Made by a program: the position numbers and the translations under genes. The notes beneath the pieces were generated by a model. That model was not told the DNA's origin. It was given only the letters and a program-made list of their open reading frames with translations, and made no database searches. From Candidatus Omnitrophica bacterium CG11_big_fil_rev_8_21_14_0_20_41_12 (GTDB lineage Bacteria > Omnitrophota > Gorgyraeia > Gygaellales > Profunditerraquicolaceae), in contig PCWB01000055.1 in NCBI GenBank assembly GCA_002796135.1, positions 22,109-86,108 of the forward strand: DNA of 64,000 nucleotides, read 5' to 3'. This document shows, one piece after another, positions 21,285 to 54,863 of this stretch (positions are counted from its first letter, which is position 1; each line of letters opens with the position of its first letter).

Positions 21285-21287
21285 TGA

Positions 21288-22532: not shown

Positions 22533-22546
22533 TTTACGAAAGGCAA

Positions 22547-36782: not shown

Positions 36783-36783
36783 T

Positions 36784-38154
36784 TTGTTGGGCAAGGCCGG
36801 CATTATTATTCCGATATGTTTTATTCTGTCCGTCTCCAGCAGTAAGCTTTTGTTTGCTGAATCCGTGTCTACTGATGTCAGAGAAACAGTCGGCACGCCT
36901 CAAGACGAAAAGAAACCGCCGGATGCTTGGTCTAGAATCTTTGATTCAGTCCATGGATTTATAGAGGCTGCTTACGGACCTAAATTTTCAGGAGATAAGC
37001 TGACGCAAAAGAATGGCTATAATCTCCTAGAGCAACGCCTCCAGCTTAAAGTGGATTACCGGCCGCAAGAACCTGCCTGGTTTGCGTCATGGAATCCGGA
37101 ATTTTTCTATAAAGCGGATCTTTTGGCTGATGAATATAAGGAAACCCTGCGGTATCAGACTCGTGAAGGATATGGGCTGTTTAGCCCTCTTTCCTGGATG
37201 GATATTAAGCTGGGAAGGCAGATTCTTACCTGGGGAACCGGTGATTATCTTTTTATCAACGATGTCTTCCCGAAGGACTACGAATCATTCTTTACCGGCC
37301 GGGATGATGAATACCTCAAGGTACCTTTAGATGCCGGAAAGTTCTCCATATTTAGCCGTTTAGTTTCAATGGATGTGGCGGTTATTCCTTTTTTTGCTCC
37401 GGATGTCTCATTTACCGGAGATCGTTTGAGTTTCTACGATAATTTTCTTGGCTGGATTGCAGGTACGCAGTCAAGCCGGGTATTCATAGAGCCCGCGGTT
37501 CAGTTCAAGAATACAGAAATAGCCGCTCGTCTATATCGTAATTTCGGAGAGTATGAAACAGCTGTTTACATGTTCAAAGGATTTTTTAATCAGCCGTTCG
37601 GTATTCAGGATGAGAATGCAAAAGAGGTATTTTATCCCAAGCTTGCAGTTTTTGGGGCGAGTATCCGCGGGCCTGCGCCGTCTGCCGGAGGGATCGCTTC
37701 CGGTGAAATAGGTTACTATGATTCTTTAGAAGATCGTAATGGTAAAAACCGGCTCATTGAGAATTCGGGGATGAAGTATCTTCTTGGTTACGAGCGGGAT
37801 TTCCCCAAGGATTGGCGCTTAGGTTTGCAGTATTACGTAGAACAGATGCTGGATTTTGATGAATTCAAAGCAAACAGCCAGCCCGGAGATATCCCCCAAG
37901 ATGAGTTTCGGCAACTCTTAACTTTGCGCGTCACCAAGCTCTTCAGGTTTCAAACTTTAGAGGCATCACTTTTTACTTTTTACAGTCCCACGGATAGTGA
38001 TGCCTACATACGGCCGCGCCTTGCCTGGCAGGCAAATGATCGTTGGAAATTGACCGCAGGGGTAAATGTTTTTTTTGGTAAACACGATTGGACCGAGTTT
38101 GGCCAATTGGAAGGTAACGACAACTTTTATCTAAGGCTTAGATATAGCTTTTAA
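36784..38154 (+). CDS. Putative outer-membrane beta-barrel protein (DUF1302-like)
   Basis: A TTG start immediately after the upstream stop, then a signal peptide. Amphipathic beta-strand alternation runs throughout, and it ends …LRLRYSF with a terminal aromatic. Confidence 0.35.
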   Translation: MLGKAGIIIPICFILSVSSSKLLFAESVSTDVRETVGTPQDEKKPPDAWSRIFDSVHGFIEAAYGPKFSGDKLTQKNGYNLLEQRLQLKVDYRPQEPAWFASWNPEFFYKADLLADEYKETLRYQTREGYGLFSPLSWMDIKLGRQILTWGTGDYLFINDVFPKDYESFFTGRDDEYLKVPLDAGKFSIFSRLVSMDVAVIPFFAPDVSFTGDRLSFYDNFLGWIAGTQSSRVFIEPAVQFKNTEIAARLYRNFGEYETAVYMFKGFFNQPFGIQDENAKEVFYPKLAVFGASIRGPAPSAGGIASGEIGYYDSLEDRNGKNRLIENSGMKYLLGYERDFPKDWRLGLQYYVEQMLDFDEFKANSQPGDIPQDEFRQLLTLRVTKLFRFQTLEASLFTFYSPTDSDAYIRPRLAWQANDRWKLTAGVNVFFGKHDWTEFGQLEGNDNFYLRLRYSF

Positions 38155-39320: not shown

Positions 39321-41918
<2,598 letters not shown>

Positions 41919-42338: not shown

Positions 42339-42952
42339 TGCTGCGCTACGAAAAAAAACTAAAAAACCGGGGTTTTGATTTAGTCATCGGCGTAGATGAG
42401 GCCGGCCGCGGGCCATTAGCCGGGCCTGTCGTGGCGGCGGCAGTGCTCTTAAGGGATTTTAGTTTTAGTAACCGGGTTGATGATTCGAAAAAATTATCCG
42501 GCATTAGAAGAAAAGAGGCATTTTTGGAGATTAAGCAAAAGTCTCAATACGCCATCGTTTCAGTCAGCCCTAAACAGATCGATACGATCAATATTTTGCA
42601 GGCGACAATAGTCGCCATGCAAAAAGCAGTTTCTAAATTGATCAAGCAGCTGGCGCCTCAAGAGTTAAAACGTGTATTTGTATTGATCGACGGAAATATG
42701 CGCCTTAAGCTGGGTTTGCCTTATCAAAGCATCATTAAGGGGGATGGCAAATCATTAAGTATTGCGTCTGCTTCCATCTTGGCAAAAGTCCGGCGTGATC
42801 AGATTATGGATGCCTACCACAAGACTTATCCGCAATACGGTTTTATCCGGCATAAAGGTTATGCGACACAGATGCATCGGGATAGTTTGAAAAAATACGG
42901 GCCTTCGGTTATTCACAGAAAGAGTTTTTTAAGGTGTCTGGAAAAAACATAG
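42338..42952 (+). CDS. rnhB: Ribonuclease HII
   Basis: [15 protein letters not shown] active-site motif, with a GTG start. Confidence 0.85.
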
Positions 42953-43314
42953 AATTCGGTAAACTTGCCGAAAAAAAAGCAGTAGAGTTTTTAAAGGCAA
43001 ACGGATACAGGATCCGGCAGTGTAATTATAAAACTAAATTCAGTGAAATCGATATCATTGCCGATGACGGTAATACGATTTGTTTTATCGAGGTTAAGGC
43101 CAGGCATTCTCTTAATCTCGGGGGCCCGCTTGATGCGGTTTCCTTCAGAAAACAAAGGCAGATCGCTAAAAGCGCTATTGATTATTTAAAAACTAATAAT
43201 TTTTTAGAGCGCTTAAGCCGTTTTGATGTGCTTACGCTTTTATACACGGATGATCAGCCTGAAATATCTTTAATTAAAAACGCATTTGAACTTAACGCAA
43301 GGTTTACACTTTAA
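42934..43314 (+). CDS. yraN: YraN-family (UPF0102) endonuclease
   Basis: 126 aa with an …EIDIIA…FIEVKAR motif. The rplS-rnhB-yraN order is conserved. Confidence 0.75.
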   Translation: MSGKNIEFGKLAEKKAVEFLKANGYRIRQCNYKTKFSEIDIIADDGNTICFIEVKARHSLNLGGPLDAVSFRKQRQIAKSAIDYLKTNNFLERLSRFDVLTLLYTDDQPEISLIKNAFELNARFTL

Positions 43315-43318
43315 AACT

Positions 43319-43882
43319 ATGAATTGCAAAACTCAAAGCCTGACTAAATACTTAAACGATTTATCCGCTAAGCTGGCTGTTCCCGGCGGCGGATCTGCAG
43401 CGGCAATGAACGCGGCGATGGGTGCGGCGCTGATCAGTATGGTGATCAATTTTACTTTAGGTAAACCAAAGTATTCTAAAGATGAAGCAGGGCTTAAAGG
43501 AATTTTAAGAAAATCAGAAAAATTAAAAGATGATTTCCTGAATTTAGTTGATTTAGATGTTCTGGCCTATAAGAGCAGGGATAACCGCAAAGCTATGGAT
43601 GTGCCGTTGATGTTGGCAAGGCTTTGCTACGAAGGGATGCAGATACTGGCGCCTTTGGTCAACAAAACAAACTTGAATTTAATCAGTGATACGGTGATTG
43701 CGGCAATATTTTTTGAGTCAGCATTCAGCGCTTCCTGTTTTAATGTCCAGATAAATCTAAAAGCACTTAATGATAAAAAATTAAGTGTTGCCGTAAATAA
43801 AGAATTAAGCCTGAAAGCTAAATCCGTTAAACGGATCAGAGCCAAGATGGAGGCCAAAGTTGGCAAAATTATTAGAGGGTAA
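43319..43882 (+). CDS. Cyclodeaminase/cyclohydrolase-family protein (FTCD C-terminal domain-like; methenyl-THF cyclohydrolase-type)
   Basis: PGGGSAAAMNAAMGAAL signature of the FTCD_C family. It is adjacent to folD. Confidence 0.6.
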   Translation: MNCKTQSLTKYLNDLSAKLAVPGGGSAAAMNAAMGAALISMVINFTLGKPKYSKDEAGLKGILRKSEKLKDDFLNLVDLDVLAYKSRDNRKAMDVPLMLARLCYEGMQILAPLVNKTNLNLISDTVIAAIFFESAFSASCFNVQINLKALNDKKLSVAVNKELSLKAKSVKRIRAKMEAKVGKIIRG

Positions 43883-44702
43883 GCTTATCGCTGAAGAAAT
43901 AAAAAAAGAATTAAGTCTTACTGTGCAAACTTTAAAACAGCCTCCGGTTTTGGCCAGCATTTTAGTGGGAGCTGATCCCGGGGCGCTGGCGTATGTAAGG
44001 GGCCAGGAAAAAACTGCACAAAGTATAGGCATAACTTATAAATTGCATCAGTTGCCTGAGAGTATCTCCGAAGACGAATTAATTGATTTTATCCTTGGGC
44101 TTAACGCAGATAAAAATGTTAACGGTATCGTGGTGCAGATGCCGCTTCCTAAACACATAGATTATCGAAAGATCAGCGAGCTTGTTTCTGCAAAAAAAGA
44201 TATTGAAGGCATGCATCCGGCAAACATGGGCAAGGTGCTTTTTGGCCGCGCCAGGATCGCTGCCTGCACGGCAACTGCGGTTATGGAATTATTGAATTCT
44301 ACTGGTGTAGATCTATACGGCAAAGAGGTAGTTGTTGTCGGTCATAGTGAAATTGTAGGAAAACCGCTGGCGTTGTTGCTATTAGAAAAATTCGCCACGG
44401 TTACGGTTTGTCATATTGCTACTAGTAAAACAGACAGGCTAGAGGAGCATGTGCGCAGGGCAGAGGTTTTAATTGTCGCGGTCGGCAAACCCGGATTGAT
44501 CAAAGGTGATTGGATCAAAGACGGGGCAATTGTTATTGATGTGGGTATAAATTGCCGGGGCAATAAGATCGTCGGAGATGTAGAGTTTGCGGAGGCAGAG
44601 AAACGCGCCAGCTTCATCACTCCTGTTCCGGGAGGAGTAGGGCCGCTGACTGTCGCCATTTTAATGCGTAACCTGGTTGAAGCAGCCAAACTTCAGCAAT
44701 AA
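43860..44702 (+). CDS. folD: Bifunctional methylene-THF dehydrogenase / methenyl-THF cyclohydrolase
   Basis: FolD pattern throughout (…VQMPLPKHID…, GHSEIVGKP, PVPGGVGP). The ORF track gives a TTG start. Confidence 0.9.
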   Translation: MAKLLEGKLIAEEIKKELSLTVQTLKQPPVLASILVGADPGALAYVRGQEKTAQSIGITYKLHQLPESISEDELIDFILGLNADKNVNGIVVQMPLPKHIDYRKISELVSAKKDIEGMHPANMGKVLFGRARIAACTATAVMELLNSTGVDLYGKEVVVVGHSEIVGKPLALLLLEKFATVTVCHIATSKTDRLEEHVRRAEVLIVAVGKPGLIKGDWIKDGAIVIDVGINCRGNKIVGDVEFAEAEKRASFITPVPGGVGPLTVAILMRNLVEAAKLQQ

Positions 44703-44818
44703 ATAATTGTTAATATTTTGCTTTTGAGGTATTGAATTGGTTTTCACTCGTTGTGGTTGTATATCTTTCAAACAAAATATATATAGTTTAAAGCGGTGTT
44801 TGAAGGGGGGCTTTTGTA

Positions 44819-45196
44819 ATGGACAGTAAAATATTAGGTATTAAAGTAGTAGGTTGGTTGTATAGAATTTTGGGTGTTTTGGGTTTATTGCGCGTAGGGT
44901 CGATGCTGGCCTTAATATTTTCTAATCTTAGGAATAAATTCGAGGCTGTTCCTGTCCCTATAAATCTTTGGATATTCCTTTTATTTGATTTTACCATCAG
45001 TTTATTTCTTATAATTATCGCCAAAGGTTTATTAAGACTAGAAGAAAAATCAAGAAGATATGCTCTCTATCTTGGTTTAGGTGATGTAATTTTAGATCTG
45101 TTATCAAACCAGTTTAGGATAAGTTTCTTCACGCTGATATTTATAGCCATTATTTTTTACATTATTCACCCTAAAATAAGAGCCCAATTTAGATAA
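44819..45196 (+). CDS. Small multi-TM membrane protein, unknown function
   Basis: 125 aa and 3-4 predicted TM helices. It lies in a distinctly AT-rich 0.5-kb patch between folD and metF. Confidence 0.3.
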   Translation: MDSKILGIKVVGWLYRILGVLGLLRVGSMLALIFSNLRNKFEAVPVPINLWIFLLFDFTISLFLIIIAKGLLRLEEKSRRYALYLGLGDVILDLLSNQFRISFFTLIFIAIIFYIIHPKIRAQFR

Positions 45197-45211
45197 CTAG
45201 TACAATAGAGA

Positions 45212-46081
45212 ATGACATTTAAAGAAAAAATACAGGCAGGGAAATTTTTAATTACCTCAGAGCTTGGCCCGGATAAAGGGATCCAGACGCAAGGGCTACT
45301 TGATGATGCCGAACTTATCCGCAACAAGGTGGATGCGCTTAATGTTACGGATTTACAGAGCTCGGTAATGCGCCTGGGGTCATTAGCCGTAAGCATTATG
45401 CTTAAACAAAAAGGATTTGAGCCGATCTATCAGCTCACCTGCCGCGACCGTAACCGTCTGGCTTTGCAATCAGATCTACTTTCTGCTGCTGCATTTGGAA
45501 TTGAAAATGTTCTGATTGTAACCGGAGATCATCCTACGCTCGGGGATCACCCGCAGGCAAAACTCGTTTTTGATTTAGATTCCGTTCAATTATTGCAGGT
45601 TGCCGGAAAATTAGCAACCGGACATGATATGAACGGCAACAAATTAACCGGCGCGCCGCCGAGATTTTGCTTAGGGGCGGTGGTTAATCCGGGCTCAGAC
45701 CCTCTGGAGCCGCAAATTATGAAGATGGATAAAAAAGTTTCCGCCGGGGCTGAATTTTTCCAGACCCAGGCAGTTTTTGACCTAAAAACTTTTGAAAATT
45801 TTATTTCAAAAATAAAATATATCAAAATTCCCGTTATCGCCGGCATCGTTTTGCTTAAGTCCGCGGAAATGGCTAACTATATGAATAAAAATGTCCCCGG
45901 AATTTCAGTGCCGGATAATTTAATTAAAGAGATGAATAATAGTAAGGATAAAACAGCCACCTCGGTTCAGATTGCAGCCGGATTGATCAAGGAATTAAAA
46001 CCGCTGTGCCGGGGGATCCATATTATGTCCATCGGCTGGGGAAAAATCGTGCCGCAAGTTTTACAGGCAAGCGGATTATAG
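45212..46081 (+). CDS. metF: Methylenetetrahydrofolate reductase
   Basis: MTHFR TIM-barrel pattern (…LTCRDRNR…, LIVTGDHP). It is 289 aa. Confidence 0.8.
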   Translation: MTFKEKIQAGKFLITSELGPDKGIQTQGLLDDAELIRNKVDALNVTDLQSSVMRLGSLAVSIMLKQKGFEPIYQLTCRDRNRLALQSDLLSAAAFGIENVLIVTGDHPTLGDHPQAKLVFDLDSVQLLQVAGKLATGHDMNGNKLTGAPPRFCLGAVVNPGSDPLEPQIMKMDKKVSAGAEFFQTQAVFDLKTFENFISKIKYIKIPVIAGIVLLKSAEMANYMNKNVPGISVPDNLIKEMNNSKDKTATSVQIAAGLIKELKPLCRGIHIMSIGWGKIVPQVLQASGL

Positions 46082-48631
46082 ATGGCAAACCTTTTACCGC
46101 AGATACCCGGAGCCAGGAAAAAAGGAGTGCTTTTATTAAGCTCCGAGGATGATTTTAAGAAATTAGACGAACATTTAATTAATGATACGGTCTGCATTGA
46201 GGGGCCATTTCAGTCAGCTTTAAGGATAGCGAAATTAATTCGGGATAAACATAAGGTTTCCATTAAGCTGGTAAGTATTGGCGAGCCTAACACGCAGCTG
46301 CCTGAAGATATTGAAATAATTAACAGCTCAATCCAGGAGATCGTCGGTGAAGGCAGGGCTGAAGCGGTAAAATTTAAAGACGGGAAAGCCATAGGCGTAT
46401 GTTTAGTTTTATTCATTGATCAAGCAGTTGAATTAAAATCAGAGGAAGAAATGACTAATGTGATTGCAGAGCTTGGAATAAAAGGAACAACTGATGTGCT
46501 GGCCCTTACCCGGCAGGTTTTAGATAAGGCTATAAGTGAAAAAGGCCGGAGCGCAAAAATTGAATTTCACCAGACTAATTATCACTTGCCTTTAATTAAT
46601 GCTCTCTTAAATATTGAAGTAAAGAATCTTGGGGGTTGTTTAGCTGCTTTGCAGCAGGCTCAAGCCCTGGCTGATAATCATCCCGCTTCAACCGGCTTAA
46701 TTATTAACAGCTTAGACGGCCTATTGAATAAGGGTGTTGCTACTTTGATCTGTGAAGAGATTCTGGCGGCTCTGGCGGTATTAAATCAAGAGCATCCTAA
46801 GGAAGGAATAGGTTTTATCCCCGATAATATTTTACGTTCGCTGGGACTGCAATTAGTCGACGGGAGGATTTCCGGTATTGCCGTAATTTTGGGCCCGGCC
46901 ACTGATGAAAAATCAGCCGTAGATTTAATCCGGAGTTTTCAATCTAGAAGTATTGTTAGTTTATTGGCGGGTAACGTTAATGGCAATACTTTCAGGCAGC
47001 AGCTTACCAATCAAGGAATTCAATTAGGCCTGGATAATTATATTGTTCCCTTAGGAGATGATTATCTTTCCGCAATTTATGCGGTGAATTTTGCGGTGCG
47101 CGCGCCCTTAATTTACGGAGGCATTAAACCCGGACAATGGGAAGGGGTAGCCGATTATATCCGCAACCGCGTTCCGGCGTTTGTTTTATTGCTTAGTCAT
47201 GTGGATGAATTGTTAGTGGCGACGGGTTTAGGGGCGCTGGCTTTTGGCTTGCCGATAATTACTGATCTGGAAGTTCCGCAGCTTGGTAAAATCGATACGA
47301 CATTATTTGAAGCTTTAGTTACGGAAAAGAATTATCAGAAAATACCTTCCCGGTGTATTATTACCCGCGGGATTAAGGTTAAGATGGCCGAAGTTGCCGT
47401 TCCGGTGGCTTATGCTGCCGCATTTGAAGGAGAGCGCGTGCGCAGAGAACAGCTGGCGGTTGAGTTCGGAGGAAAAGCCAGCGAGGCGATCGAATTTTTA
47501 TCGACTAAAGAAGAGTCTGAAGTTGAGGATGGCTTAATTGAATTGATCGGCCCAGATATCGACCAGCTGCCTGCAGGTAGTAAATCTTTGCCTTTGGCAA
47601 TCATCATCGATGTTTTCGGCCGCAAGATGCAGAAAGATTTTGAGCCGATCCTTGAGCGCCAGGTCCACCGTTTTGTTAATTATGCGATGGGCCTTATGCA
47701 TATGGGCCAGCGCGATATGGTCTGGATCAGGGTATCTAAGGATGCTTTTGGAAAAGGCCTCAGATTAAAACATTTAGGGACTATCTTACATGCCATGTTG
47801 CATCAGGAGTATAGCGCAATTGTCGATAAAGTGCAGATCAAGCTTTATACCGATCAGGCGGATGTAAAGAAGTTATCCGCAGGTGCTCAAAAAATATTTA
47901 ATGAGCGCGACGAGCGATTGGCCGGGATGAATGATGAGAGTGTGGATACATTTTATTCCTGTTTATTATGTCAATCCTTTGCTTCGAATCATGTTTGTGT
48001 GGTTACTCCTGAACGGCTTGGTTTATGCGGGGCATACTCCTGGCTTGATGCCAAGGCTTCTTTTGAGATCACTCCTACCGGACCGAATCAGCCGATACCT
48101 AAAGGCAATCTCTTGGATCAAAGACTCGGGCAGTGGGATAAGATCAATGAATTTGTGCAGCAAAAATCCAATCAGACAATTGATACGGTAAGTATGTATT
48201 CGTTAATGGACGGGCCGCAATCATCCTGCGGATGTTTTGAATGTATTGTGGCGGTTATCCCTGAAGCCAACGGAGTTATGGTCGTGCATCGCGATTATGT
48301 CGGGATGACTCCTTCGGGAATGAGTTTTACTACTTTAGCCGGTTCCGTCGGAGGAGGGGTGCAGACCCCCGGGTTCCTGGGTGTGGGAAAATTATATATC
48401 TTAAGCAAAAAATTTATTTCCGCCGAAGGCGGATTAAAAAGAGTTGTCTGGATGCCTAAAGAATTAAAAGAGATCTTAGGCGACAGGTTAAAGGCAGCTT
48501 GTACCCAAGCAGGGCAGGCGGATTTATTGGATAAAATCGCCGATGAGTCGATTACTACTAATTCTGAGGAGCTTTTAGTTTTTCTGAATAAAGTATCGCA
48601 TCCGGCTTTGACCATGGATCCAATCATATAA
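46082..48631 (+). CDS. acsB: CO-methylating acetyl-CoA synthase catalytic subunit (AcsB / CdhC homolog)
   Basis: It carries the A-cluster ligand set exactly: C-x2-C-x8-C-x9-C (CLLCQSFASNHVCVVTPERLGLC) and the downstream Ni-site CGC (SSCGCFEC). There are long stretches of near-identity to Moorella-type AcsB recalled from memory (IGPDIDQ, WIRVSKDA, GMTPSGM, HPALTMDPI). At 849 aa it is roughly 120 aa longer than typical. Confidence 0.85.
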   Translation: MANLLPQIPGARKKGVLLLSSEDDFKKLDEHLINDTVCIEGPFQSALRIAKLIRDKHKVSIKLVSIGEPNTQLPEDIEIINSSIQEIVGEGRAEAVKFKDGKAIGVCLVLFIDQAVELKSEEEMTNVIAELGIKGTTDVLALTRQVLDKAISEKGRSAKIEFHQTNYHLPLINALLNIEVKNLGGCLAALQQAQALADNHPASTGLIINSLDGLLNKGVATLICEEILAALAVLNQEHPKEGIGFIPDNILRSLGLQLVDGRISGIAVILGPATDEKSAVDLIRSFQSRSIVSLLAGNVNGNTFRQQLTNQGIQLGLDNYIVPLGDDYLSAIYAVNFAVRAPLIYGGIKPGQWEGVADYIRNRVPAFVLLLSHVDELLVATGLGALAFGLPIITDLEVPQLGKIDTTLFEALVTEKNYQKIPSRCIITRGIKVKMAEVAVPVAYAAAFEGERVRREQLAVEFGGKASEAIEFLSTKEESEVEDGLIELIGPDIDQLPAGSKSLPLAIIIDVFGRKMQKDFEPILERQVHRFVNYAMGLMHMGQRDMVWIRVSKDAFGKGLRLKHLGTILHAMLHQEYSAIVDKVQIKLYTDQADVKKLSAGAQKIFNERDERLAGMNDESVDTFYSCLLCQSFASNHVCVVTPERLGLCGAYSWLDAKASFEITPTGPNQPIPKGNLLDQRLGQWDKINEFVQQKSNQTIDTVSMYSLMDGPQSSCGCFECIVAVIPEANGVMVVHRDYVGMTPSGMSFTTLAGSVGGGVQTPGFLGVGKLYILSKKFISAEGGLKRVVWMPKELKEILGDRLKAACTQAGQADLLDKIADESITTNSEELLVFLNKVSHPALTMDPII

Positions 48632-48647
48632 TCTGTGCGCATTATTT

Positions 48648-48664
48648 TTTGATTTAATTTTTCT
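48648..48664. repeat. 17-bp direct repeat TTTGATTTAATTTTTCT, left flank of the IS (target-site-duplication candidate)
   Basis: An identical 17-mer recurs at 50083-50099, immediately outside the right terminal inverted repeat. Confidence 0.5.
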
Positions 48665-50082
48665 GTAATCCCAATATGATAATGTCGTATTCTGCCAATT
48701 TAAAAATGTCGTATTCCAAGGATGCTATAATGCTCCCTCTGGAAGGAGGACATTATCGCAATGACGCAAGGAGAGTTAAAAAGGCTGCACGTAATCCATA
48801 AAGCGCTGGACAAATTAATAACCCAGGCTGAAGCGGCAGGTATTATCGGGATATGCCTAAGGCAAGCCCAGAGGATAGTAAAAGCAGTAAAGGCCCAAGG
48901 AGATAAGGGTGTAATACATAAATCCCGGGGCCAGGCATCAAACAGGGCCTTGCCGGATAAAATAAAAGATAAGGCATTAAAATTATATCAAGAGAAATAT
49001 CATGATTTTGGCCCTACTCTTGGAGCAGAGAAGCTCTTGGAAATAGATAAGATTAAAATAAATGACGAGACGCTGCGCCTTTGGCTCTTGCAAGCAGGTA
49101 TTTCCTATAAAAAGCGCAAGGCCCGTCCGCACAGGCAATGGCGTGAACGAAAACATTCATTCGGGGAAATGATTCAAATGGATGGCTCTCATCATGACTG
49201 GTTTGAGGGACGCGGCCCTGAATGCGTGCTTATGGGTTATATTGACGATGCCACAGGCAGGCCCTTTGGCAGGTTTTATTCCTACGAAGGAACTCTCCCG
49301 GCAATGGGTGGCCTCAAGCGTTATATTGAAAAGTTCGGAATACCGGTAAGTGTTTATTTAGATAAGCATCCGACGCATAAATCAACCAAGAAGCAGGATA
49401 TAGAAGACGAGCTCAATAATTTAGAGCCTTTAAGCCAATTCGAAAGGGCTAGTGAAGAATTAGGAATCCGGGTTATCCATGCTGATTCTCCTCAGGCTAA
49501 AGGAAGGATAGAGAGGCTCTTTAAGACTTTTCAGAATCGGCTGATAAAAGAGATGCGCTTAAAAGGCATTAAAACAATAGAAGAAGCCAATAAATTATTA
49601 ATGTATTATCTCCCGGCATACGCCAAAAGATTTGCTGTCCAGCCGGCTAATAATACCGACCTTCATCGGCCCGTTACTAAAAGCGTTGATCTTAACGCGG
49701 TCTTCTGCGTAAAAACAATACGGGTGTTAAGGAATGATTTTACCGTAGCTCATAATAGCAAGCTTTACCAGATAGAAAATAATTTAAATGCCAAAAAGGT
49801 AATGGTAGAAGAAAGAGCCAATAGCTCAATACATATTAGCTATAAGAGCATGGATCTTAAGTTCAAAGAGATAACCACTAGGCCAAAGAAGCAGCAGAAG
49901 GAACCGCAATCGCCTAAAATTCCAGACAACGCTCAAAGAACTGCCGCTTGGAGGCGGTTTAGATTACCGGGTTCAATAAAGTTCGAAGCCAGAGAAGAAG
50001 CTTTAGCAGGTGTTCTTTAAAAACAATGAAATACGACATTTCTAATTTGGTAACAATACGACATTTCTAATTTGGCTTGACA
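48665..50082 (+). mobile_element. Insertion sequence (~1.42 kb) with a single DDE transposase; IS481 / ISNCY(IS1202-group)-like
   Basis: Each end carries two copies of an imperfect ~21-bp inverted repeat, CCAA(A)TT(A/T)(A/G)AAATGTCGTATT (left 48670-48716; right 50031-50077 in reverse complement). The element encloses one transposase ORF and is flanked by the 17-bp direct repeats. Confidence 0.7.
48761..50020 (+). CDS. DDE transposase (N-terminal HTH, rve-type integrase core)
   Basis: 419 aa with an HTH-like N-terminus and a catalytic-core pattern (…QMDGSHHDWF…, …DDATGRPFG…, …HADSPQAKGRIER…). An RBS GGAAGGAGG lies upstream. Confidence 0.8.
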   Translation: MTQGELKRLHVIHKALDKLITQAEAAGIIGICLRQAQRIVKAVKAQGDKGVIHKSRGQASNRALPDKIKDKALKLYQEKYHDFGPTLGAEKLLEIDKIKINDETLRLWLLQAGISYKKRKARPHRQWRERKHSFGEMIQMDGSHHDWFEGRGPECVLMGYIDDATGRPFGRFYSYEGTLPAMGGLKRYIEKFGIPVSVYLDKHPTHKSTKKQDIEDELNNLEPLSQFERASEELGIRVIHADSPQAKGRIERLFKTFQNRLIKEMRLKGIKTIEEANKLLMYYLPAYAKRFAVQPANNTDLHRPVTKSVDLNAVFCVKTIRVLRNDFTVAHNSKLYQIENNLNAKKVMVEERANSSIHISYKSMDLKFKEITTRPKKQQKEPQSPKIPDNAQRTAAWRRFRLPGSIKFEAREEALAGVL

Positions 50083-50099
50083 TTTGATTTAATTTTTCT
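50083..50099. repeat. 17-bp direct repeat TTTGATTTAATTTTTCT, right flank of the IS
   Basis: Identical to 48648-48664. Confidence 0.5.
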
Positions 50100-50127
50100 T
50101 GACGAGCGCATTATAAATGTATATAAT
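50099..50127 (+). promoter_or_regulatory. Near-consensus sigma70 promoter for the TPR gene, abutting the IS right end
   Basis: TTGACG (50099-50104), a 17-nt spacer, then TATAAT (50122-50127), with the ATG at 50138. The -35 overlaps the last bases of the 17-bp direct repeat. Confidence 0.5.
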
Positions 50128-50137
50128 TAGTAAATAC

Positions 50138-50869
50138 ATGGATAAACCTATCCTGCCTAAATTCCTAATTACTATAGTTTCAATAACTTGCGTTTTATTT
50201 CTGGTGCGGCCGCTTTATGCTGAAAAGGAAAAAGACGGCTTATATTTACAAGGCAGAAGTTACCGTCAGGCAGGTTTAGAGAGCCAGCGTGTCGGTAATT
50301 TAGCCGATGCGATGGCATTGTATCAGAAAGCTATTGCCGTAGACCCCGGCTATGCGGAAGCCTATAATGATTTAGGGATCATTTATGAAGCAATGGGGTC
50401 TGCTGAGAAGGCAGAAGAGTGCTATTTAAAGGCGATTAAAATCGATCCTGCCTATATAAGCGTTTATACAAATTTGGCGCTGCTTTATGAAAGTAAGCGC
50501 GATTTAGAGAAGGCTGCCTATTATTGGAATAAGCGCGTTCAAATCGGCTCGGCGGATGATCCCTGGACGCAAAAAGCAGCCGACCGGCTTAAAGATATCC
50601 GTATAGTTTTGTCCAAGCATCCGATCGCGGATTTACGCGAGGGAGATGTGCTTAGCCTGATGCAGGATGTTTCCGCAGATAAAACTTCGTTGACCAAAGA
50701 TGACCTGAGTGCTTCCGCCAGCCATTTTAAAAAAGCCAAAGAATGTTTTAAAAAGGGGGATCTGGCGACAGCCATCAAAGAAGCCCTGGATGCCCAATAT
50801 TTAGACCCAAAAAACAAAGAGATCGAAGCCTTTATTGAGAAGACGGAATTGAGAGCACTGTCGCGATAG
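50138..50869 (+). CDS. TPR-repeat protein with an N-terminal signal/anchor
   Basis: A hydrophobic N-terminus, then at least three TPR-like units (AxxxYxxAIxxDPxYAEAYNxLG…). Confidence 0.6.
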   Translation: MDKPILPKFLITIVSITCVLFLVRPLYAEKEKDGLYLQGRSYRQAGLESQRVGNLADAMALYQKAIAVDPGYAEAYNDLGIIYEAMGSAEKAEECYLKAIKIDPAYISVYTNLALLYESKRDLEKAAYYWNKRVQIGSADDPWTQKAADRLKDIRIVLSKHPIADLREGDVLSLMQDVSADKTSLTKDDLSASASHFKKAKECFKKGDLATAIKEALDAQYLDPKNKEIEAFIEKTELRALSR

Positions 50870-50919: not shown

Positions 50920-53484
50920 ATGAGTAAAGAAAGTTTATTTCTGATCGACGCTACTGCATTTTGTTACCGGGCATTCTATGCCTTAAAGGATTTAAGGACA
51001 TCTTCAGGCCAGGCGACCAATGCCATCTACGGATTTTTGAATATCCTTAATAAAATATTAAAAGAGCAGAAGCCGGATCGTTTAATTTGTTGTTTTGATG
51101 TTTCACGCGATACTTTCCGGCTGGCTAAGTTTGCTCAGTATAAGATGCAAAGAGAAGCTATGCCCGATGGCCTGGTGAGCCAGATTCCCATCATCAAAGA
51201 GATTATTCGCGCCTATGGGATACCTATTTTTGAGCAAAAAGGGTTGGAAGCGGATGATATTATTGCGCATCTGGCCAGGAAGGCAGCAGCGAAAAAAATT
51301 TCCGTGACCATTGTCTCTAGCGATAAAGATATTTTACAATTAGTCGATAAGTATATTTCGGTATTTAGCCCTTATAAAGATGAAGGTATAATTTATGATG
51401 CGGCTAAAGTTAAGGAGCGTTTTGGGGTTAGCCCACAGCAGGTTAGCGATATTATTTCTCTGGTGGGAGATATTGCCGATAATATCCCGGGAGTCCCGGG
51501 GATCGGAGAGGTGACCGCAAAAAAACTTATCACTGAATTCGGTTCGTTGGATAAATTACTTAAACATATTTCCGAGGTGGAACCTGAAAAAATCAGAGAA
51601 AGTATAGTTGCTCATCTTGACCGTATAAAATTAAATAAAGAGCTGATCAGCCTGGATCGTAAAATGGAGATGAAGCTGGATCTGAATCAGGCTAAAGTGG
51701 GCAAACCGGATTATCCGGAGTTATCCCGGATCTTTAAAAAATTAGAGTTTAAGAAACTCTTAAGCGAGCTTCCTGAGACGGATGAGGAAAAAACTCCGGT
51801 TAAGCTAGAGACTTGCGGTAAACAAGAAGTAAAAGATCTGCTGAGGCATACAGAAGAGATTTTTCTTTCCGGCTCTTGCGCCGATGATCTGGTCTTTGCT
51901 ATTGACGGTAAATTATTTGATGCTAAAAGCGCCAAGGATGATTTGTATAAAGTTATCTCCAGCGTCAGGGTAAAAAAGACCGGGCATGATCTTAAGAAAT
52001 TAAAGGCCGCTCTTTTTAAAGAGGACTTAATTTTAAACGGCCTGGATTTTGATACGATGATTGCCGCTCATCTCTTAAATCCTGCGCGTTCAAGTTATGC
52101 TATTAGCGACCTGGCATTGGAAAATCTGGGTGAATTTATCCGGCAGGGTGAAAATCTCGAAGCCAAAGAAGCATTGGCGCTGATCATTAAATTAAAGCCG
52201 GTGCTGATTAAGGCTCTAAAAGAAAAAGATCTATTTAGTTTATTTTGTGATCTGGAGATGCCTCTGGTAAGTATTTTGGCTCAGATGGAGGCTGACGGCA
52301 TTAAGCTGGACCTGAAGCTGCTTAAAAACCTTGCGCATGATATCGAGCAGAGGTTGATAAAATTGATTTCAGAAATCTATGAAGCCAGCGGAACGCAATT
52401 TAATATTAATTCTCCTAAACAGCTGGGGCAGGTTTTATTTGAAAAGTTAGGGCTGCCGGTAATTAAAAAAACCAAAACCGGCCCGTCTACGGATGAAGAG
52501 GTGCTTAACCGCCTCGCCAGCCAACATGCGCTGCCTGCTCTTTTGTTAGAATACCGGCAGTTGACTAAATTAAAAAATACCTATGTTGATGCTTTACCTA
52601 AATTGGTAGACCCAAAAGACGGCAGAGTGCATACTTCTTTTAATCAGACGGTAACCGAAACCGGCAGGCTTAGCTCTAGCAACCCTAACCTGCAGAATAT
52701 TCCGGTTAAAACCGATATTGGCGCCAAGATCAGAGAGGCGATCATTGCCACGGGAAAAGATAATTGTTTATTATCCTGTGACTATTCGCAGATAGAATTA
52801 AGAGTATTGGCGCATCTTTGCGGGGATGAAACATTGATCAAGGCCTTTCGCAACGATAATGATGTCCACCGCCTGACGGCATCTTTAATTAATAATATCG
52901 CCGAAGATAAAGTTAAGGATAATATGCGCGAGGTGGCTAAAAGGGTTAATTTTGGCATTATTTACGGCCAAAGCGCCTTCGGCCTGGCTAAGGATCTGGA
53001 TATTCCGATAAATCAAGCGCAGGATTTTATTGATGCATATTTTTTACGTTATCCGAAAGTAAAAAAATATATCGAAGCTCAAATCAAACAGGCGCAGGAG
53101 CAAGGGTTTGTGACGACATTATTTGGCAGAAGAAGATATCTTCCTGAAATTAATAATAAAAATATGGGGATCAGGCAGTTTGCTCAGCGCCAGGCAGTGA
53201 ACACTCCTATTCAGGGGACGGCCAGCGACTTGATCAAGATGGCGATGATCAACATCTCAGAGCAGATCAAGGCAAAAGAGCTCAAAGCTAAGATGATTTT
53301 GCAGATCCATGATGAGTTGGTTTTTGATCTGCCGAACGAAGAATTAAAGGTGCTTAGTGAAATGGTTAAAGATAAAATGGAGCATGTTTATAAATTGAAT
53401 GTGCCGATAAAAGTAGATATGAAAAAAGGGGCAAATTGGCTTAAGATGTCGGTTTGGCGCAGCAATCAGGAGGGCTCCCGATGA
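50920..53484 (+). CDS. polA: DNA polymerase I
   Basis: 854 aa with a 5'-3' exonuclease N-terminus and polymerase motifs A, B and C (…DYSQIELR…, …KRVNFGIIYG…, QIHDEL). Confidence 0.9.
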   Translation: MSKESLFLIDATAFCYRAFYALKDLRTSSGQATNAIYGFLNILNKILKEQKPDRLICCFDVSRDTFRLAKFAQYKMQREAMPDGLVSQIPIIKEIIRAYGIPIFEQKGLEADDIIAHLARKAAAKKISVTIVSSDKDILQLVDKYISVFSPYKDEGIIYDAAKVKERFGVSPQQVSDIISLVGDIADNIPGVPGIGEVTAKKLITEFGSLDKLLKHISEVEPEKIRESIVAHLDRIKLNKELISLDRKMEMKLDLNQAKVGKPDYPELSRIFKKLEFKKLLSELPETDEEKTPVKLETCGKQEVKDLLRHTEEIFLSGSCADDLVFAIDGKLFDAKSAKDDLYKVISSVRVKKTGHDLKKLKAALFKEDLILNGLDFDTMIAAHLLNPARSSYAISDLALENLGEFIRQGENLEAKEALALIIKLKPVLIKALKEKDLFSLFCDLEMPLVSILAQMEADGIKLDLKLLKNLAHDIEQRLIKLISEIYEASGTQFNINSPKQLGQVLFEKLGLPVIKKTKTGPSTDEEVLNRLASQHALPALLLEYRQLTKLKNTYVDALPKLVDPKDGRVHTSFNQTVTETGRLSSSNPNLQNIPVKTDIGAKIREAIIATGKDNCLLSCDYSQIELRVLAHLCGDETLIKAFRNDNDVHRLTASLINNIAEDKVKDNMREVAKRVNFGIIYGQSAFGLAKDLDIPINQAQDFIDAYFLRYPKVKKYIEAQIKQAQEQGFVTTLFGRRRYLPEINNKNMGIRQFAQRQAVNTPIQGTASDLIKMAMINISEQIKAKELKAKMILQIHDELVFDLPNEELKVLSEMVKDKMEHVYKLNVPIKVDMKKGANWLKMSVWRSNQEGSR

Positions 53485-54863
53485 AAATAGCGGTGGCGCT
53501 CTCAGAGATGGTTCCTTTTGCTAAGACCGGCGGGCTTGCCGATGTCGGCGGCGCCCTGCCTTTGGACTTAGAGTATTGCGGACATGAAGTAATTATACTT
53601 ATGCCCGGATATAAATGCATCCGGGATTCTAAATTAAAGATCCGCAGGGTTTCTAAAGATATATCATCTTCAACGATCGGTAAAAATATTAAAGTTTATT
53701 TTATCGAGCATGATTTTTATTTTAACCGCGACTGCATTTACGGCGACAAAGACGGTGATTACTGGGATAATTTGGAACGGTTTGCTTTTTTCTGCCGCCG
53801 AGGGCTGGATTTGTTGAAGGAGATAAATTTTAGCGCCGACATATTGCATCTGCATGACTGGCAGTCAAGCCTGATGGCGGTTTATCTGAAAACTCTATAT
53901 TCAGAAGATAATTTTTATAGCCGGACCAGGAGCCTTTTAACGATCCACAATATCGGTTATCAGGGGGTTTTTGCCAAAGAGGAGTTTAAAAAACTTGGCC
54001 TTGAGAATAAATATTTTGATATTAATGGTCTTGAATTTTATGATAAGGTTAATTTGCTCAAGGGCGGGATAATTTTTTCTGATTTTATAAATACCGTTAG
54101 TCCTACTTATGCCAAGGAGATCCAGACCAAAGAGTTTGGTTTTGGTTTAGAGGGGCTCTTAAAGAAACGAAAAGATGTCTTAAGCGGGATATTAAACGGC
54201 ATAGATTACTCTGTTTGGGATCCGGATGCGGATGAATTTATCATACAGAATTATTCTGCGCGCGATATTGAGCGAAAAATTCTGAATAAAGAGGATCTGC
54301 AGCGGCAATGCGGGTTAGCGTTAAATGCAGAGCTACCCGTTTTAGGCATTGTATCTCGCCTGGCAAAGCAGAAAGGCTTTGATATTCTTACTGCCTCACT
54401 TGAGGAGCTTTGTAAAATGGATCTCCAATTAATCATCCTGGGAATCGGGGATGATAAGTACCACCAGCTTTTAAAGGCAGCTGCTAAAAAATATCCGAAA
54501 GTCGTTGCTCTGAATTTAAATTTCGATGATCCGCTGGCGCACAAGATTTACGCAGGATGCGATATTTTTCTGATGCCTTCAAAATATGAACCCTGCGGCC
54601 TCGGCCAATTGATCAGTTTGCGCTATGGCACAATACCGCTGGTTTTTAAGACCGGAGGCCTTGCGGACACGATTACTAAAAATAACGGTTTTATTTTTAC
54701 CGATTATACTAAAGAGGGTCTTTTGCAAATAGTTAAGAAGGCCACATTAGCTTTTAAAAATAAAATTGAGTGGAAGCGTTTAATTTTAAATGCAATGCAA
54801 TGTAATTTTTCCTGGAAGGTCTCAGCGGATAAGTATAGCTATCTCTATGCCAAAGCTAAATAA
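53481..54863 (+). CDS. glgA: Glycogen synthase (ADP-glucose type)
   Basis: N-terminal KTGGLADVGGALP motif. The start was set at the ATG at 53481 behind a GGAGGG RBS. Confidence 0.85.
   Translation: MKIAVALSEMVPFAKTGGLADVGGALPLDLEYCGHEVIILMPGYKCIRDSKLKIRRVSKDISSSTIGKNIKVYFIEHDFYFNRDCIYGDKDGDYWDNLERFAFFCRRGLDLLKEINFSADILHLHDWQSSLMAVYLKTLYSEDNFYSRTRSLLTIHNIGYQGVFAKEEFKKLGLENKYFDINGLEFYDKVNLLKGGIIFSDFINTVSPTYAKEIQTKEFGFGLEGLLKKRKDVLSGILNGIDYSVWDPDADEFIIQNYSARDIERKILNKEDLQRQCGLALNAELPVLGIVSRLAKQKGFDILTASLEELCKMDLQLIILGIGDDKYHQLLKAAAKKYPKVVALNLNFDDPLAHKIYAGCDIFLMPSKYEPCGLGQLISLRYGTIPLVFKTGGLADTITKNNGFIFTDYTKEGLLQIVKKATLAFKNKIEWKRLILNAMQCNFSWKVSADKYSYLYAKAK

What the first reader, a model, noticed from the sequence alone, without database searches (positions are those of the whole stretch)
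43319..50099. Wood-Ljungdahl methyl-branch and acsB cluster terminated by an IS element
An FTCD_C cyclohydrolase-like gene, folD, metF and a full-length acetyl-CoA synthase (acsB) with intact A-cluster cysteines are co-oriented. In characterised acs operons acsB is flanked by CODH (acsA/cooS), the corrinoid Fe-S protein (acsC/acsD), the methyltransferase acsE and cooC. None of these is present. Instead acsB is followed 30 bp later by an IS element and then by unrelated genes (TPR, polA). Either the IS has split the acs operon and the remaining genes lie elsewhere or were lost, or this lineage keeps acsB detached from CODH. AcsB is also ~120 aa longer than typical.
Basis: partly seen in the sequence, partly recalled or inferred. 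Interest (0 to 1): 0.55.

Follow-up and report, generated by a model that had tools for sequence, protein, structure and literature searches.

The report
CODH-less acsB with fossil reductase domain
The insertion sequence did not break an acetyl-CoA synthase operon: acsB already stood apart from its partner genes in this Omnitrophota lineage. Its extra 125 N-terminal residues are a conserved leftover of a reductase gene that once sat next to a now-deleted CO dehydrogenase.

Summary
fchA-like, folD, metF and a full-length acsB (849 aa, all A-cluster ligands intact) are co-oriented and followed by an IS, then a TPR gene and polA. The IS-split reading is refuted. Sister species of this Omnitrophota family (Profunditerraquicolaceae/UBA6249) have the same order yraN-fchA-folD-metF-acsB-TPR-polA with an empty IS site. 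The IS is a complete 1,419-bp IS1202-family element with a 16-bp target duplication. It lies in the acsB-TPR spacer and is fixed in one species. In two close relatives, acsC-RACo-cooC-acsD-acsE lies elsewhere on the acsB contig, about 260 kb away in the one where both positions were read. In other Omnitrophota lineages, one of them placed in the same family, cooS-cooF-FNOR (an FAD/NAD(P) oxidoreductase) lies between metF and acsB at this same site. Further lineages keep only a truncated FNOR of about 290 aa. In the window clade a roughly 113-aa NAD-binding subdomain of FNOR, which has lost its GxGxxG motif, is fused in frame to AcsB. That remnant is under purifying selection (dN/dS about 0.10) in more than 100 sequence clusters. 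A CODH-less partial Wood-Ljungdahl pathway in this family is already published; I found no description of the FNOR-remnant fusion. Whether cooS exists elsewhere in the genome could not be tested.

The parts
43319..43882 (+). fchA-like gene (FTCD_C; putative methenyl-THF cyclohydrolase), 187 aa
   Evidence: Pfam FTCD_C E=1e-39. NCBIfam FchA scores 127 bits, below its cutoff of 275. The 187-aa gene is called at this position in relatives.
43860..44702 (+). folD (methylene-THF dehydrogenase/cyclohydrolase)
   Evidence: Pfam THF_DHG_CYH and THF_DHG_CYH_C.
44703..45211 (+). Species-specific insertion of about 502 bp between the folD stop and the metF start. It carries a 125-aa hydrophobic ORF (44819-45196) with no family match.
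   Evidence: Absent in L004, L005 and L007, where folD and metF are 8 nt apart. Present in L003, which is the same species. No TIR or TSD found. No Pfam hit.
45212..46081 (+). metF (methylene-THF reductase). Its TAG stop abuts the acsB ATG.
   Evidence: Pfam MTHFR E=1e-32. Sequence reads TAG|ATG at 46079-46084.
46082..48631 (+). acsB, 849 aa: FNOR-remnant domain + linker + complete bacterial acetyl-CoA synthase
   Evidence: NCBIfam NF040764, 970 bits, matches aa 133-849. Aligns to PDB 6ytt and 1mjg. More than 100 homologue clusters of 72-89% identity cover the full length.
46082..46420 (+). N-terminal extension, aa 1-113: degenerate NAD(P)-binding Rossmann subdomain derived from the upstream FNOR gene
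   Evidence: BLASTP to aa 111-222 of the truncated FNOR of L016: 46% identity, E=5e-28. tblastn with the full-length FNOR of L023: E=7.7e-4. Multiple alignment. AF2 model plus Foldseek. dN/dS 0.10.
46421..46477 (+). Variable linker, aa 114-132. It contains a retained ancestral-looking acsB ribosome-binding site and start (GAGGA-N4-ATG, Met124, 46441-46453).
   Evidence: dN/dS 0.52 and length variation. Sequence.
47960..48028 (+). A-cluster [4Fe-4S] and bridging cysteines C627, C630, C639 and C649
   Evidence: Aligned to Moorella C506, C509, C518 and C528. Invariant in 15 sequences.
48227..48235 (+). Cys716-Gly717-Cys718, ligands of the distal Ni
   Evidence: Aligned to the Moorella C595-G596-C597 motif. 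Invariant.
48648..48663 (.). Left copy of the 16-bp target-site duplication TTTGATTTAATTTTTC
   Evidence: Direct repeat D9. Present as a single copy in the empty sites of L005, L004 and L007.
48664..50082 (+). IS1202-family insertion sequence, 1,419 bp. Ends are 5'-TGT...ACA-3', with imperfect terminal inverted repeats (20 of 28) and two subterminal AATGTCGTATT repeats at each end.
   Evidence: Features match the family description in PMC10132070.
48761..50020 (+). Transposase, 419 aa, intact
   Evidence: NCBIfam transpos_ISNCY_2, 383 bits against a cutoff of 250. The exact protein occurs on 15 contigs; the 10 examined all show this same context.
50083..50098 (.). Right copy of the 16-bp target-site duplication
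50099..50127 (+). Conserved promoter-like site TTGACG-17-TATAAT upstream of TPR-polA, left intact by the IS
   Evidence: Best match in the region, 11 of 12. Conserved in relatives. A consensus match only.
50117..50869 (+). TPR protein, the ancestral downstream neighbour of acsB
   Evidence: Pfam TPR families. Follows acsB in nearly all window-clade, truncated-FNOR and cooS-cooF-FNOR loci that extend that far.
50920..53484 (+). polA, a conserved synteny anchor
   Evidence: NCBIfam DNA polymerase I, 1001 bits.

Best explanation
The window is a conserved chromosomal segment of a Candidatus Omnitrophota species (class Velamenicoccia, family Profunditerraquicolaceae, GTDB f__UBA6249).

Shown:
1. 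acsB ends a small fchA-folD-metF-acsB gene string embedded among housekeeping genes. This order, with TPR-polA-glgA downstream, is ancestral to the whole clade.
2. The IS is a recent IS1202-family insertion with a 16-bp target duplication. It sits in the acsB-TPR spacer of one species. It interrupts no gene and leaves the downstream promoter-like site intact.
3. In two close relatives the partner genes acsC-RACo-cooC/acsF-acsD-acsE form a separate cluster elsewhere on the same contig as acsB. In the one where both positions were read, the two are about 260 kb apart.
4. In other Omnitrophota lineages, one of them placed in the same family, cooS-cooF-FNOR lies between metF and acsB at this same site. 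Further lineages keep only a C-terminally truncated FNOR of about 290 aa. In the window clade only the NAD-binding subdomain of FNOR survives, with its GxGxxG motif lost. It is fused in frame to AcsB through a variable linker and is under purifying selection.

Inferred: AcsB works with the distant corrinoid Fe-S protein and methyltransferase as a CODH-independent module. That module interconverts acetyl-CoA with methyl-THF + CO + CoA. It could run in the cleavage direction, as in Dehalococcoides, to feed C1 units through MetF and FolD. It could instead use external CO, as Seymour et al. proposed. The FNOR-derived domain most likely has a structural or docking role on AcsB rather than a redox role.
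For: Taxon:
- The best AcsB hits are all Omnitrophota MAGs.
- L012 (CAINQO01) is Amyimicrobium silvilacustre, Profunditerraquicolaceae, in Seymour 2023 Supplementary Table 1.

Ancestral synteny without the IS:
- L004-L011 and L015.
- Empty site with a single target copy.

IS anatomy matches the IS1202 family with long TSDs. The IS is fixed: the exact transposase occurs on 15 contigs, and all 10 shown are in the same context and at least 99.3% identical to the window.

CFeSP cluster on the acsB contig:
- AcsC P0362 lies on JAQUQW010000001.1, with the acsC-acsE cluster at about 332.5-338.2 kb. acsB lies at about 597.6-600.2 kb.
- In ERZ27297473 contig k141_931320 (589,957 bp), AcsC P0365 was located. 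AcsB P0031 is assigned to the same contig only by its identical longest-contig length.

Ancestral cooS-cooF-FNOR at the site: L023, L024, L025, L027 and L030.

Homology of the extension to FNOR:
- 46% identity, E=5e-28 to L016 aa 111-222.
- E=7.7e-4 to the full-length FNOR.
- Multiple alignment.
- The truncated forms are Pyr_redox_2 members.
- The AF2 model (pLDDT 74, pTM 0.70) matches flavoprotein reductases of the Pyr_redox_2 type by Foldseek: 112 PDB hits at E<=1e-3; the 50 best listed are nearly all of this type, one being AorC 8c0z_E, which is also the best sequence match of the full-length FNOR.

Selection: dN/dS is 0.10 for the extension, 0.52 for the linker and 0.06 for the AcsB core.

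The NJ tree nests the fused clade within the truncated-FNOR lineages.

Published: a partial WLP lacking AcsA/CooS but with AcsB-E, in 24 species from families that include this one.
Against: - Absence of cooS, fhs and formate dehydrogenase from the rest of this genome was not tested. It rests on Seymour et al., whose per-genome table I could not read.
- The same family also contains CooS-bearing species.
- The AcsB N-terminal domain, which in known enzymes docks CODH and forms the CO tunnel, is still under strong constraint (dN/dS 0.065). That would also fit a CODH encoded elsewhere.
- The NJ tree has no support values. The gene-order states do not map onto it as one clean series: L022 keeps acsC after acsB, and L015 groups with L016/L017.
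- CODH-less lineages with no FNOR remnant at all exist (L043, L045, L048), so the remnant is not a general requirement of CODH-less ACS.
- No function of the extension has been demonstrated, and Pfam does not recognise it on its own.
Confidence: 0.8

Rival explanations
1. The IS insertion, or recombination between IS copies, split a formerly contiguous acs operon and moved or deleted cooS, acsC, acsD and acsE.
For: An intact IS lies directly after acsB, and unrelated genes follow it.
Against: Sister species without the IS have the identical acsB-TPR-polA junction and a single copy of the 16-bp target. A clean 16-bp TSD shows simple insertion, not rearrangement. Only one context was found for this IS on the contigs examined, and there is no second copy in the window. 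The CFeSP cluster is separate in relatives that lack the IS.
Confidence: 0.02
2. CODH was relocated, not lost. A cooS gene elsewhere in the genome supplies CO to AcsB in trans, so the organism still has a complete carbonyl branch. On this view the FNOR remnant is incidental.
For: The CODH-docking N-terminal domain of AcsB is strongly conserved (dN/dS 0.065). A cooC/acsF maturation ATPase is kept next to acsD. Some species of the same family have CooS. The acs genes are demonstrably dispersed in this clade.
Against: Seymour et al. report 24 species, spread over five families including this one, that lack AcsA and CooS/F. The only cooS position seen in related lineages is the one that has been deleted here. 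No cooS lies within 64 kb of acsB or within 10 kb of the acsC cluster.
Confidence: 0.2
3. The N-terminal extension is a non-functional relic, or is not part of the mature enzyme. On this view translation of functional AcsB starts at the retained internal site (GAGGA-N4-ATG, Met124).
For: An SD-like sequence and an ATG sit at the position where canonical AcsB begins. That Met is kept in most sequences. Pfam does not recognise the extension. The GxGxxG motif is lost.
Against: The extension is an open, in-frame, stop-free sequence in more than 100 sequence clusters, with many invariant residues. Its dN/dS is 0.10, against 0.52 in the adjacent linker. Some sequences have lost the internal Met (P0017, P0050, P0069). 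The metF stop abuts the upstream ATG, which suggests coupled translation. A related lineage shows a separate fusion of a truncated FNOR to AcsB (L017, 1,027 aa).
Confidence: 0.1

Closest known systems
Partial Wood-Ljungdahl pathway of Omnitrophota (Velamenicoccus archaeovorus type; Seymour et al. 2023, PMC10066038)
   Same: Same phylum, class and family range. The methyl-branch genes and AcsB-E are present, and AcsA/CooS/CooF are absent. My loci reproduce this at gene-order level.
   Different: That paper reports presence or absence of KOs. In the text and supplements I could read, it does not describe the gene order, the deletion of cooS-cooF-FNOR from between metF and acsB, or the FNOR-derived extension of AcsB. 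It also lists Fhs as present; fhs is missing from this locus in the window clade.
Incomplete Wood-Ljungdahl pathway of Dehalococcoides mccartyi (Zhuang et al. 2014, as cited in PMC9324843)
   Same: AcsB plus the corrinoid Fe-S protein without CODH. The proposed role is cleavage of acetyl-CoA to supply methyl-THF.
   Different: From my own knowledge, Dehalococcoides lacks metF, whereas metF sits directly upstream of acsB here. No FNOR-derived domain is known there. The direction of flux here is untested.
CooS-CooF-FNOR gene unit (Whitham 2015 and Geelhoed 2016, reviewed in Inoue et al. 2019, PMC6344411)
   Same: The ancestral state at this locus (L023 type) is exactly this trio: Prismane-family CODH, a Fer4_11 ferredoxin and a Pyr_redox_2 + Rubredoxin_C oxidoreductase. 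The extension is homologous to the NAD-binding subdomain of FNOR.
   Different: In the window the CODH, CooF, the FAD-binding domain and the C-terminal domain are all gone and the dinucleotide-binding glycine motif is lost. It is a remnant, not a member.
Bacterial acetyl-CoA synthase (Moorella thermoacetica ACS alpha, 1MJG/1OAO; C. autoethanogenum 6YTT; C. hydrogenoformans 1RU3)
   Same: Three-domain architecture and all A-cluster ligands. E-values of 1e-198 to 1e-205 over aa 134-849.
   Different: About 130 extra N-terminal residues, no adjacent CODH gene, and partner genes about 260 kb away in a close relative.
IS1202 family, long-TSD subgroup (Harmer & Hall 2023, PMC10132070)
   Same: TGT/ACA ends, imperfect TIRs, an extra internal transposase-binding repeat, a 16-bp TSD and a 419-aa transposase within the family's size range of 394-507 aa.
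   Different: At 1,419 bp it is slightly shorter than most listed members. It appears single-copy and fixed in this species. Its DDE residues were not checked.

Membership tests
Bacterial acetyl-CoA synthase AcsB (NCBIfam NF040764 / PRK09529) | Whole-protein score above the curated cutoff | tested here: met
   970 bits against a cutoff of 800, and 957 against 809.
Bacterial acetyl-CoA synthase AcsB | A-cluster ligands: Cys-x2-Cys-x8-Cys-x9-Cys for the [4Fe-4S] cluster and bridge, plus Cys-Gly-Cys for the distal Ni | tested here: met
   C627, C630, C639 and C649 plus C716-G717-C718 align to the Moorella residues. Invariant in 15 relatives.
Bacterial acetyl-CoA synthase AcsB | Three-domain architecture, including the N-terminal CODH-contact domain | tested here: met
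   Pfam CODH_A_N (145-231), CdhC (440-595) and ACS_CODH_B_C (606-849).
Bifunctional CODH/ACS complex (acs operon) | CODH subunit (acsA/cooS) encoded with, or available to, AcsB | tested here: not met
   No cooS in the 64-kb window or beside the acsC cluster of relatives. The rest of the genome is not testable here. The literature reports absence in 24 species from families that include this one.
Bifunctional CODH/ACS complex (acs operon) | Corrinoid Fe-S protein (acsC, acsD), methyltransferase (acsE) and Ni-insertion ATPase present | tested here: inconclusive
   Present about 260 kb from acsB on the same contig in a relative whose AcsB is 82% identical. A second relative carries the same acsC cluster on a contig assigned to its acsB only by matching contig length. 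Not in the window, and the window's own genome could not be searched.
FNOR / Pyr_redox_2 flavoprotein oxidoreductases | N-terminal FAD-binding Rossmann domain | tested here: not met
   The extension aligns only to aa 111-222 of the truncated FNORs. Residues 1-110 are missing.
FNOR / Pyr_redox_2 flavoprotein oxidoreductases | NAD(P)H-binding GxGxxG/A motif | tested here: not met
   Full-length FNORs have VLGGGLIGL; the window has VCIEGPFQSAL. A helix of about 15 aa is also deleted.
FNOR / Pyr_redox_2 flavoprotein oxidoreductases | Pfam model match above threshold | tested here: not met
   No Pyr_redox hit for the extension alone, even at E<=1. Homology is shown only through intermediates and by fold.
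IS1202 family (long-TSD subgroup) | Transposase related to the IS1202/ISNCY group | tested here: met
   NF033594 transpos_ISNCY_2, 383 bits against a cutoff of 250.
IS1202 family (long-TSD subgroup) | 5'-TGT...ACA-3' ends, imperfect TIRs and an additional internal transposase-binding repeat | tested here: met
   Criteria taken from PMC10132070.
IS1202 family (long-TSD subgroup) | Target-site duplication of 16-28 bp | tested here: met
   A 16-bp duplication, confirmed against three empty sites.
IS1202 family (long-TSD subgroup) | DDE catalytic triad | not tested
   No residue-level alignment to the family consensus was made.
Dehalococcoides-type incomplete Wood-Ljungdahl pathway | AcsB + CFeSP present, CODH absent, pathway run in the acetyl-CoA cleavage direction | not testable with these tools
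   Gene content is compatible. Genome-wide absence of CODH and the direction of flux both need a whole-genome search and labelling experiments.

The most novel reading that the evidence does not exclude
The FNOR-derived domain is not a passive relic. It may be a recruited module that gives a CODH-less acetyl-CoA synthase a new property. One possibility is that it occupies or gates the face and CO tunnel of the AcsB N-terminal domain that normally docks CODH. Another is that it binds a nucleotide-containing ligand such as CoA or NAD(P)H. Two fusion forms exist (the window clade and L017), and the FNOR and acsB genes overlap in lineages that keep them separate. Both facts would then indicate that FNOR physically contacted ACS in the ancestral CooS-CooF-FNOR/ACS assembly, pointing to an NAD(P)H-linked CODH/ACS supercomplex that has not been characterised.
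Probability: 0.2. Interest if true: 0.65.

Novelty: new variant of a known kind. Interest (0 to 1): 0.4.

Why it matters
For the scan, this closes the IS hypothesis. The IS is an ordinary, neutral and fixed insertion, and the 'orphan' acsB is a lineage trait that is already published at pathway level.

Two things appear to be new.
- At one syntenic locus, related lineages show successive gene-order states running from a full cooS-cooF-FNOR-acsB-acsCDE operon down to a CODH-less, dispersed arrangement.
- A degenerate FNOR NAD-domain has been kept under purifying selection as an N-terminal domain of AcsB in more than 100 sequence clusters.

The fused domain makes one question testable: whether FNOR-type oxidoreductases physically associate with ACS, and what a CODH-independent ACS needs in order to function. 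Annotation pipelines call these proteins plain 'alpha/beta subunit', and metabolic reconstructions may wrongly score these genomes as having a carbonyl branch able to fix CO2.

Tried and rejected
- **AcsC profile search.** A search with a profile of Omnitrophota AcsC sequences taken from acsB-adjacent clusters (A2) returned 120 hits. None lay on contigs of the window clade.
- **Accession matching.** Matching NCBI protein accession ranges between AcsB and AcsC hits also failed.
- **What did work.** The link came only after the metagenome scan revealed a distinct clade of detached acsC clusters, one of which was used as the query.
- **Published gene table.** Seymour et al.'s per-genome presence/absence table could not be read, because the stored supplement is cut.
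- **Pfam on the extension alone.** It gave nothing relevant.
- **The 502-bp folD-metF insertion.** No terminal inverted repeats or target duplication were found, so I do not call it a mobile element.
- **A strictly linear loss series.** I considered this and rejected it. The NJ tree and L022, where acsC still follows acsB, show that the states do not map as single events.
- **Assembly artefact.** I rejected this explanation for the fusion because it recurs in more than 100 independent clusters from many samples.
- **Full-length AcsB structure prediction.** I did not run it, because the tool returns no inter-domain contacts. It could not show where the extension docks.

Full report
**1. What is there**

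| Gene | Coordinates | Note |
|---|---|---|
| yraN | 42934-43314 | context |
| fchA-like (FTCD_C) | 43319-43882 | |
| folD | 43860-44702 | |
| 125-aa hydrophobic ORF | 44819-45196 | no family match |
| metF | 45212-46081 | |
| acsB | 46082-48631 | 849 aa |
| ISNCY-type transposase | 48761-50020 | |
| TPR protein | 50117-50869 | |
| polA | 50920-53484 | |
| glgA | 53454-54863 | |

The NCBIfam ACS model matches only aa 133-849 of AcsB (970 bits, cutoff 800). Solved ACS structures (6YTT, 1MJG, 1OAO, 1RU3) align from residue 134-143 onward. Every A-cluster ligand is conserved: C627, C630, C639, C649 and C716-G-C718.

Pfam scans of the other ORFs of 110 aa or more show housekeeping genes only. tblastn with reference Fhs, CooS, CooF, AcsC, AcsD, AcsE, CooC and RACo finds nothing in the 64 kb.

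**2. Whose genome**

The 120 best AcsB homologues are 72-89% identical and nearly all cover the full length. Every one that carries a source name is from a Candidatus Omnitrophota MAG. One relative, L012 (CAINQO01, GCA_903852325.1), is listed by Seymour et al. 2023 as Amyimicrobium silvilacustre. Its placement is Velamenicoccia, Gygaellales, Profunditerraquicolaceae (GTDB c__Koll11; o__GIF10; f__UBA6249).

**3. The IS did not split an operon**

Loci of relatives that lack the IS all show rnhB-yraN-fchA-folD-metF-acsB-TPR-polA-glgA-coaE-rho. These are L004 (87% AcsB identity), L005 (89%), L006 (80%, a 922-kb contig), L007 (82%, a 649-kb contig) and L008-L011 and L015.

Aligning the acsB-TPR spacers shows a single copy of TTTGATTTAATTTTTC in the relatives. 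The window has two copies, at 48648-48663 and 50083-50098, flanking 1,419 bp.

The inserted element has these features:
- 5'-TGT...ACA-3' ends;
- imperfect terminal inverted repeats (20 of 28);
- two subterminal AATGTCGTATT repeats at each end;
- an intact 419-aa transposase.

These are the features Harmer & Hall 2023 give for the IS1202 family and its long-TSD (16-28 bp) subgroup.

The IS lies 32 nt after the acsB stop. It sits immediately 5' of a conserved TTGACG-17-TATAAT promoter-like site (50099-50127), which the duplication leaves intact.

The exact transposase occurs on 15 contigs. The 10 places shown come from 10 different samples, all have this same context and all are at least 99.3% identical to the window. 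The IS therefore appears single-copy and fixed in this species, and it is absent from sister species.

**4. Where the partner genes are**

A first AcsC profile search and accession matching gave no link to the window clade. A metagenome scan then revealed a distinct clade of acsC-RACo-cooC-acsD-acsE clusters with no acsB nearby. Using one of these as the query returned two informative hits:
- AcsC P0362 lies on the same 649,478-bp contig (JAQUQW010000001.1) as AcsB P0006.
- AcsC P0365 has the same longest-contig length (589,957 bp) as AcsB P0031.

On JAQUQW010000001.1 the acsC-RACo-cooC/acsF-acsD-acsE cluster lies at about 332.5-338.2 kb and acsB at about 597.6-600.2 kb. The ENA contig carries the same cluster in the same neighbourhood.

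**5. What used to sit next to acsB**

I labelled ORFs in 80 acsB loci from species-representative genomes. At this same syntenic site between metF and TPR-polA, Omnitrophota show five arrangements.

| State | Loci | Arrangement |
|---|---|---|
| a | L040, L042 | fhs-fchA-folD-metF-(cooC)-cooS-cooF-FNOR-acsB-acsC, followed in L040 by RACo-cooC-acsD-acsE (L042 shows nothing labelled after acsC) |
| b | L023, L024, L025, L027, L030 | metF-cooS-cooF-FNOR(421-450 aa)-acsB-TPR-polA; L024 is in the same family as the window clade |
| c | L022, L021 | metF-FNOR(401 or 300 aa)-acsB |
| d | L016, L018, L019, L020, L028, L031, L032, L034, L054 | metF-truncated FNOR(286-302 aa)-acsB; in L017 the two are fused into 1,027 aa |
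| e | window clade | metF-acsB(845-865 aa), with fhs also gone from the site |

FNOR is a Pyr_redox_2 + Rubredoxin_C flavoprotein. Its best solved relative is AorC of the tungsten aldehyde oxidoreductase, 8c0z_E. CooF is a Fer4_11 ferredoxin. The CooS-CooF-FNOR trio is a known, biochemically uncharacterised unit (Inoue et al. 2019).

**6. The extension is a remnant of FNOR**

- Residues 4-114 of the window AcsB align to residues 111-222 of the truncated FNORs. The best match is L016 (46% identity, E=5e-28); nine others fall between E=1e-9 and 1e-24.
- The full-length FNOR of L023 hits window 46094-46411 directly at E=7.7e-4.
- In the multiple alignment, full-length FNORs keep the NAD-site GxGxxG (VLGGGLIGL). 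The truncated forms and the window have lost it (VCIEGPFQSAL) and share a deletion of about 15 residues. The FAD domain (aa 1-110) and everything after aa 222 are absent from the window protein.
- An AlphaFold2 model of aa 1-132 (23-sequence alignment, pLDDT 74, pTM 0.70) is a beta-alpha-beta unit followed by a beta-meander.
- Foldseek gives 112 PDB matches at E<=1e-3. The 50 best listed are nearly all flavoprotein reductases of the Pyr_redox_2 type. Examples are NAD(P)H oxidase 2cdu (TMq 0.63), CoA-disulfide reductase 6ruz (0.65), AIF, trypanothione reductase and AorC 8c0z_E.

Pairwise Nei-Gojobori estimates over 11 window-clade genes give a median dN/dS of 0.10 for the extension. The linker gives 0.52, the AcsB N-domain 0.065 and the remainder 0.061. 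Synonymous sites are near saturation in many pairs, so these are rough values, but the contrast between extension and linker is clear.

An SD-like GAGGA-N4-ATG (Met124, 46441-46453) sits where canonical AcsB would start. This Met is lost in some relatives, so the fusion product cannot be dispensable in those.

An NJ tree of the AcsB core places the fused clade inside the truncated-FNOR lineages and next to the cooS-bearing ones. It carries no support values, and the states do not form a strictly linear series.

**7. How it probably works**

Shown: the gene content and its history.

Inferred: AcsB, the distant CFeSP (AcsCD), AcsE, RACo and the Ni-insertion ATPase form a CODH-independent module. 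That module interconverts acetyl-CoA with methyl-THF, CO and CoA. MetF, FolD and FchA, which sit directly upstream, connect the methyl group to the folate C1 pool.

The precedents are the Dehalococcoides incomplete pathway, which runs in the cleavage direction (cited), and Seymour et al.'s proposal of CO-dependent acetyl-CoA synthesis. I cannot decide the direction.

The extension has no FAD domain and no dinucleotide motif, so a redox role is unlikely. Its conservation and the separate L017 fusion suggest a structural or docking role on AcsB. CODH-less lineages without any remnant (L043, L045, L048) show that it is not universally required.

**8. Novelty and score**

The gene cluster, the IS and the CODH-less pathway are ordinary or already published. 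I found no description of an FNOR-derived, selected N-terminal domain on AcsB, or of the locus-level history behind it. My searches were limited, and absence from them is weak evidence.

I rate this a new variant of a known kind, with interest 0.4.

Noticed in passing
window 44703-45211: A 502-bp insertion lies between the folD stop and the metF start. It carries a 125-aa, very hydrophobic ORF (44819-45196) with its own purine-rich leader. It has no Pfam or NCBIfam match and no terminal repeats or target duplication. It is present only in this species (window and L003) and absent from L004, L005 and L007.
   Followed up: partly
window 33324-38154: The slot between queA (32158-33150) and tgt (40093-41238) is variable. 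The window holds an ArsR-type regulator, an MMPL/RND-like transporter (766 aa), a LolA-like protein and a 481-aa ORF with no family. These precede the methyltransferase and PNP_UDP_1 genes that L004 also has. L005 and L007 have nothing there, and L006 has HNH and ORF6N genes instead.
   Followed up: partly
window 46441-46453: An SD-like GAGGA followed after 4 nt by ATG (Met124) sits inside the acsB reading frame, at the position where canonical AcsB starts. It looks like the ancestral start site and could give a second, shorter product.
   Followed up: partly
window 7161-8888: A 575-aa ORF with no Pfam match at E<=1e-5 lies between serA (5578-7164) and an HMGL-like (citramalate or isopropylmalate synthase type) gene.
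   Followed up: no
window 20022-23782: Two paralogous T2SSE/PilB-type secretion ATPases (420 and 411 aa) flank a class II aminoacyl-tRNA synthetase gene.
   Followed up: no
window 1-64000: Every credible gene is on the + strand, and GC skew is positive in all 32 two-kb bins (0.09-0.23). The whole window appears to lie on one leading-strand replichore arm.
   Followed up: no
L085 10001-12283; L094 4033-7870; L153, L157, L159: Other unusual AcsB architectures turn up outside Omnitrophota. AcsB ORFs of about 1,280 aa occur in a Thermoleophilia MAG and in a metagenome contig. Apparent AcsB-AcsD fusions of 1,216-1,237 aa also occur. They were labelled by BLAST only and were not checked for frameshifts.
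   Followed up: no
L017 8990-12073: A single 1,027-aa ORF fuses a whole truncated FNOR (about 300 aa) to AcsB in an Omnitrophota MAG (QNCD01). This is a second fusion form, different in extent from the one in the window clade. It was seen in only one assembly.
   Followed up: partly
L168 21019-21332 and L169 20770-21332: In relatives, a second Pterin_bind protein (about 400 aa; folP-like or a methyltransferase) lies about 5 kb downstream of the acsC-acsE cluster, after ftsH.
   Followed up: no
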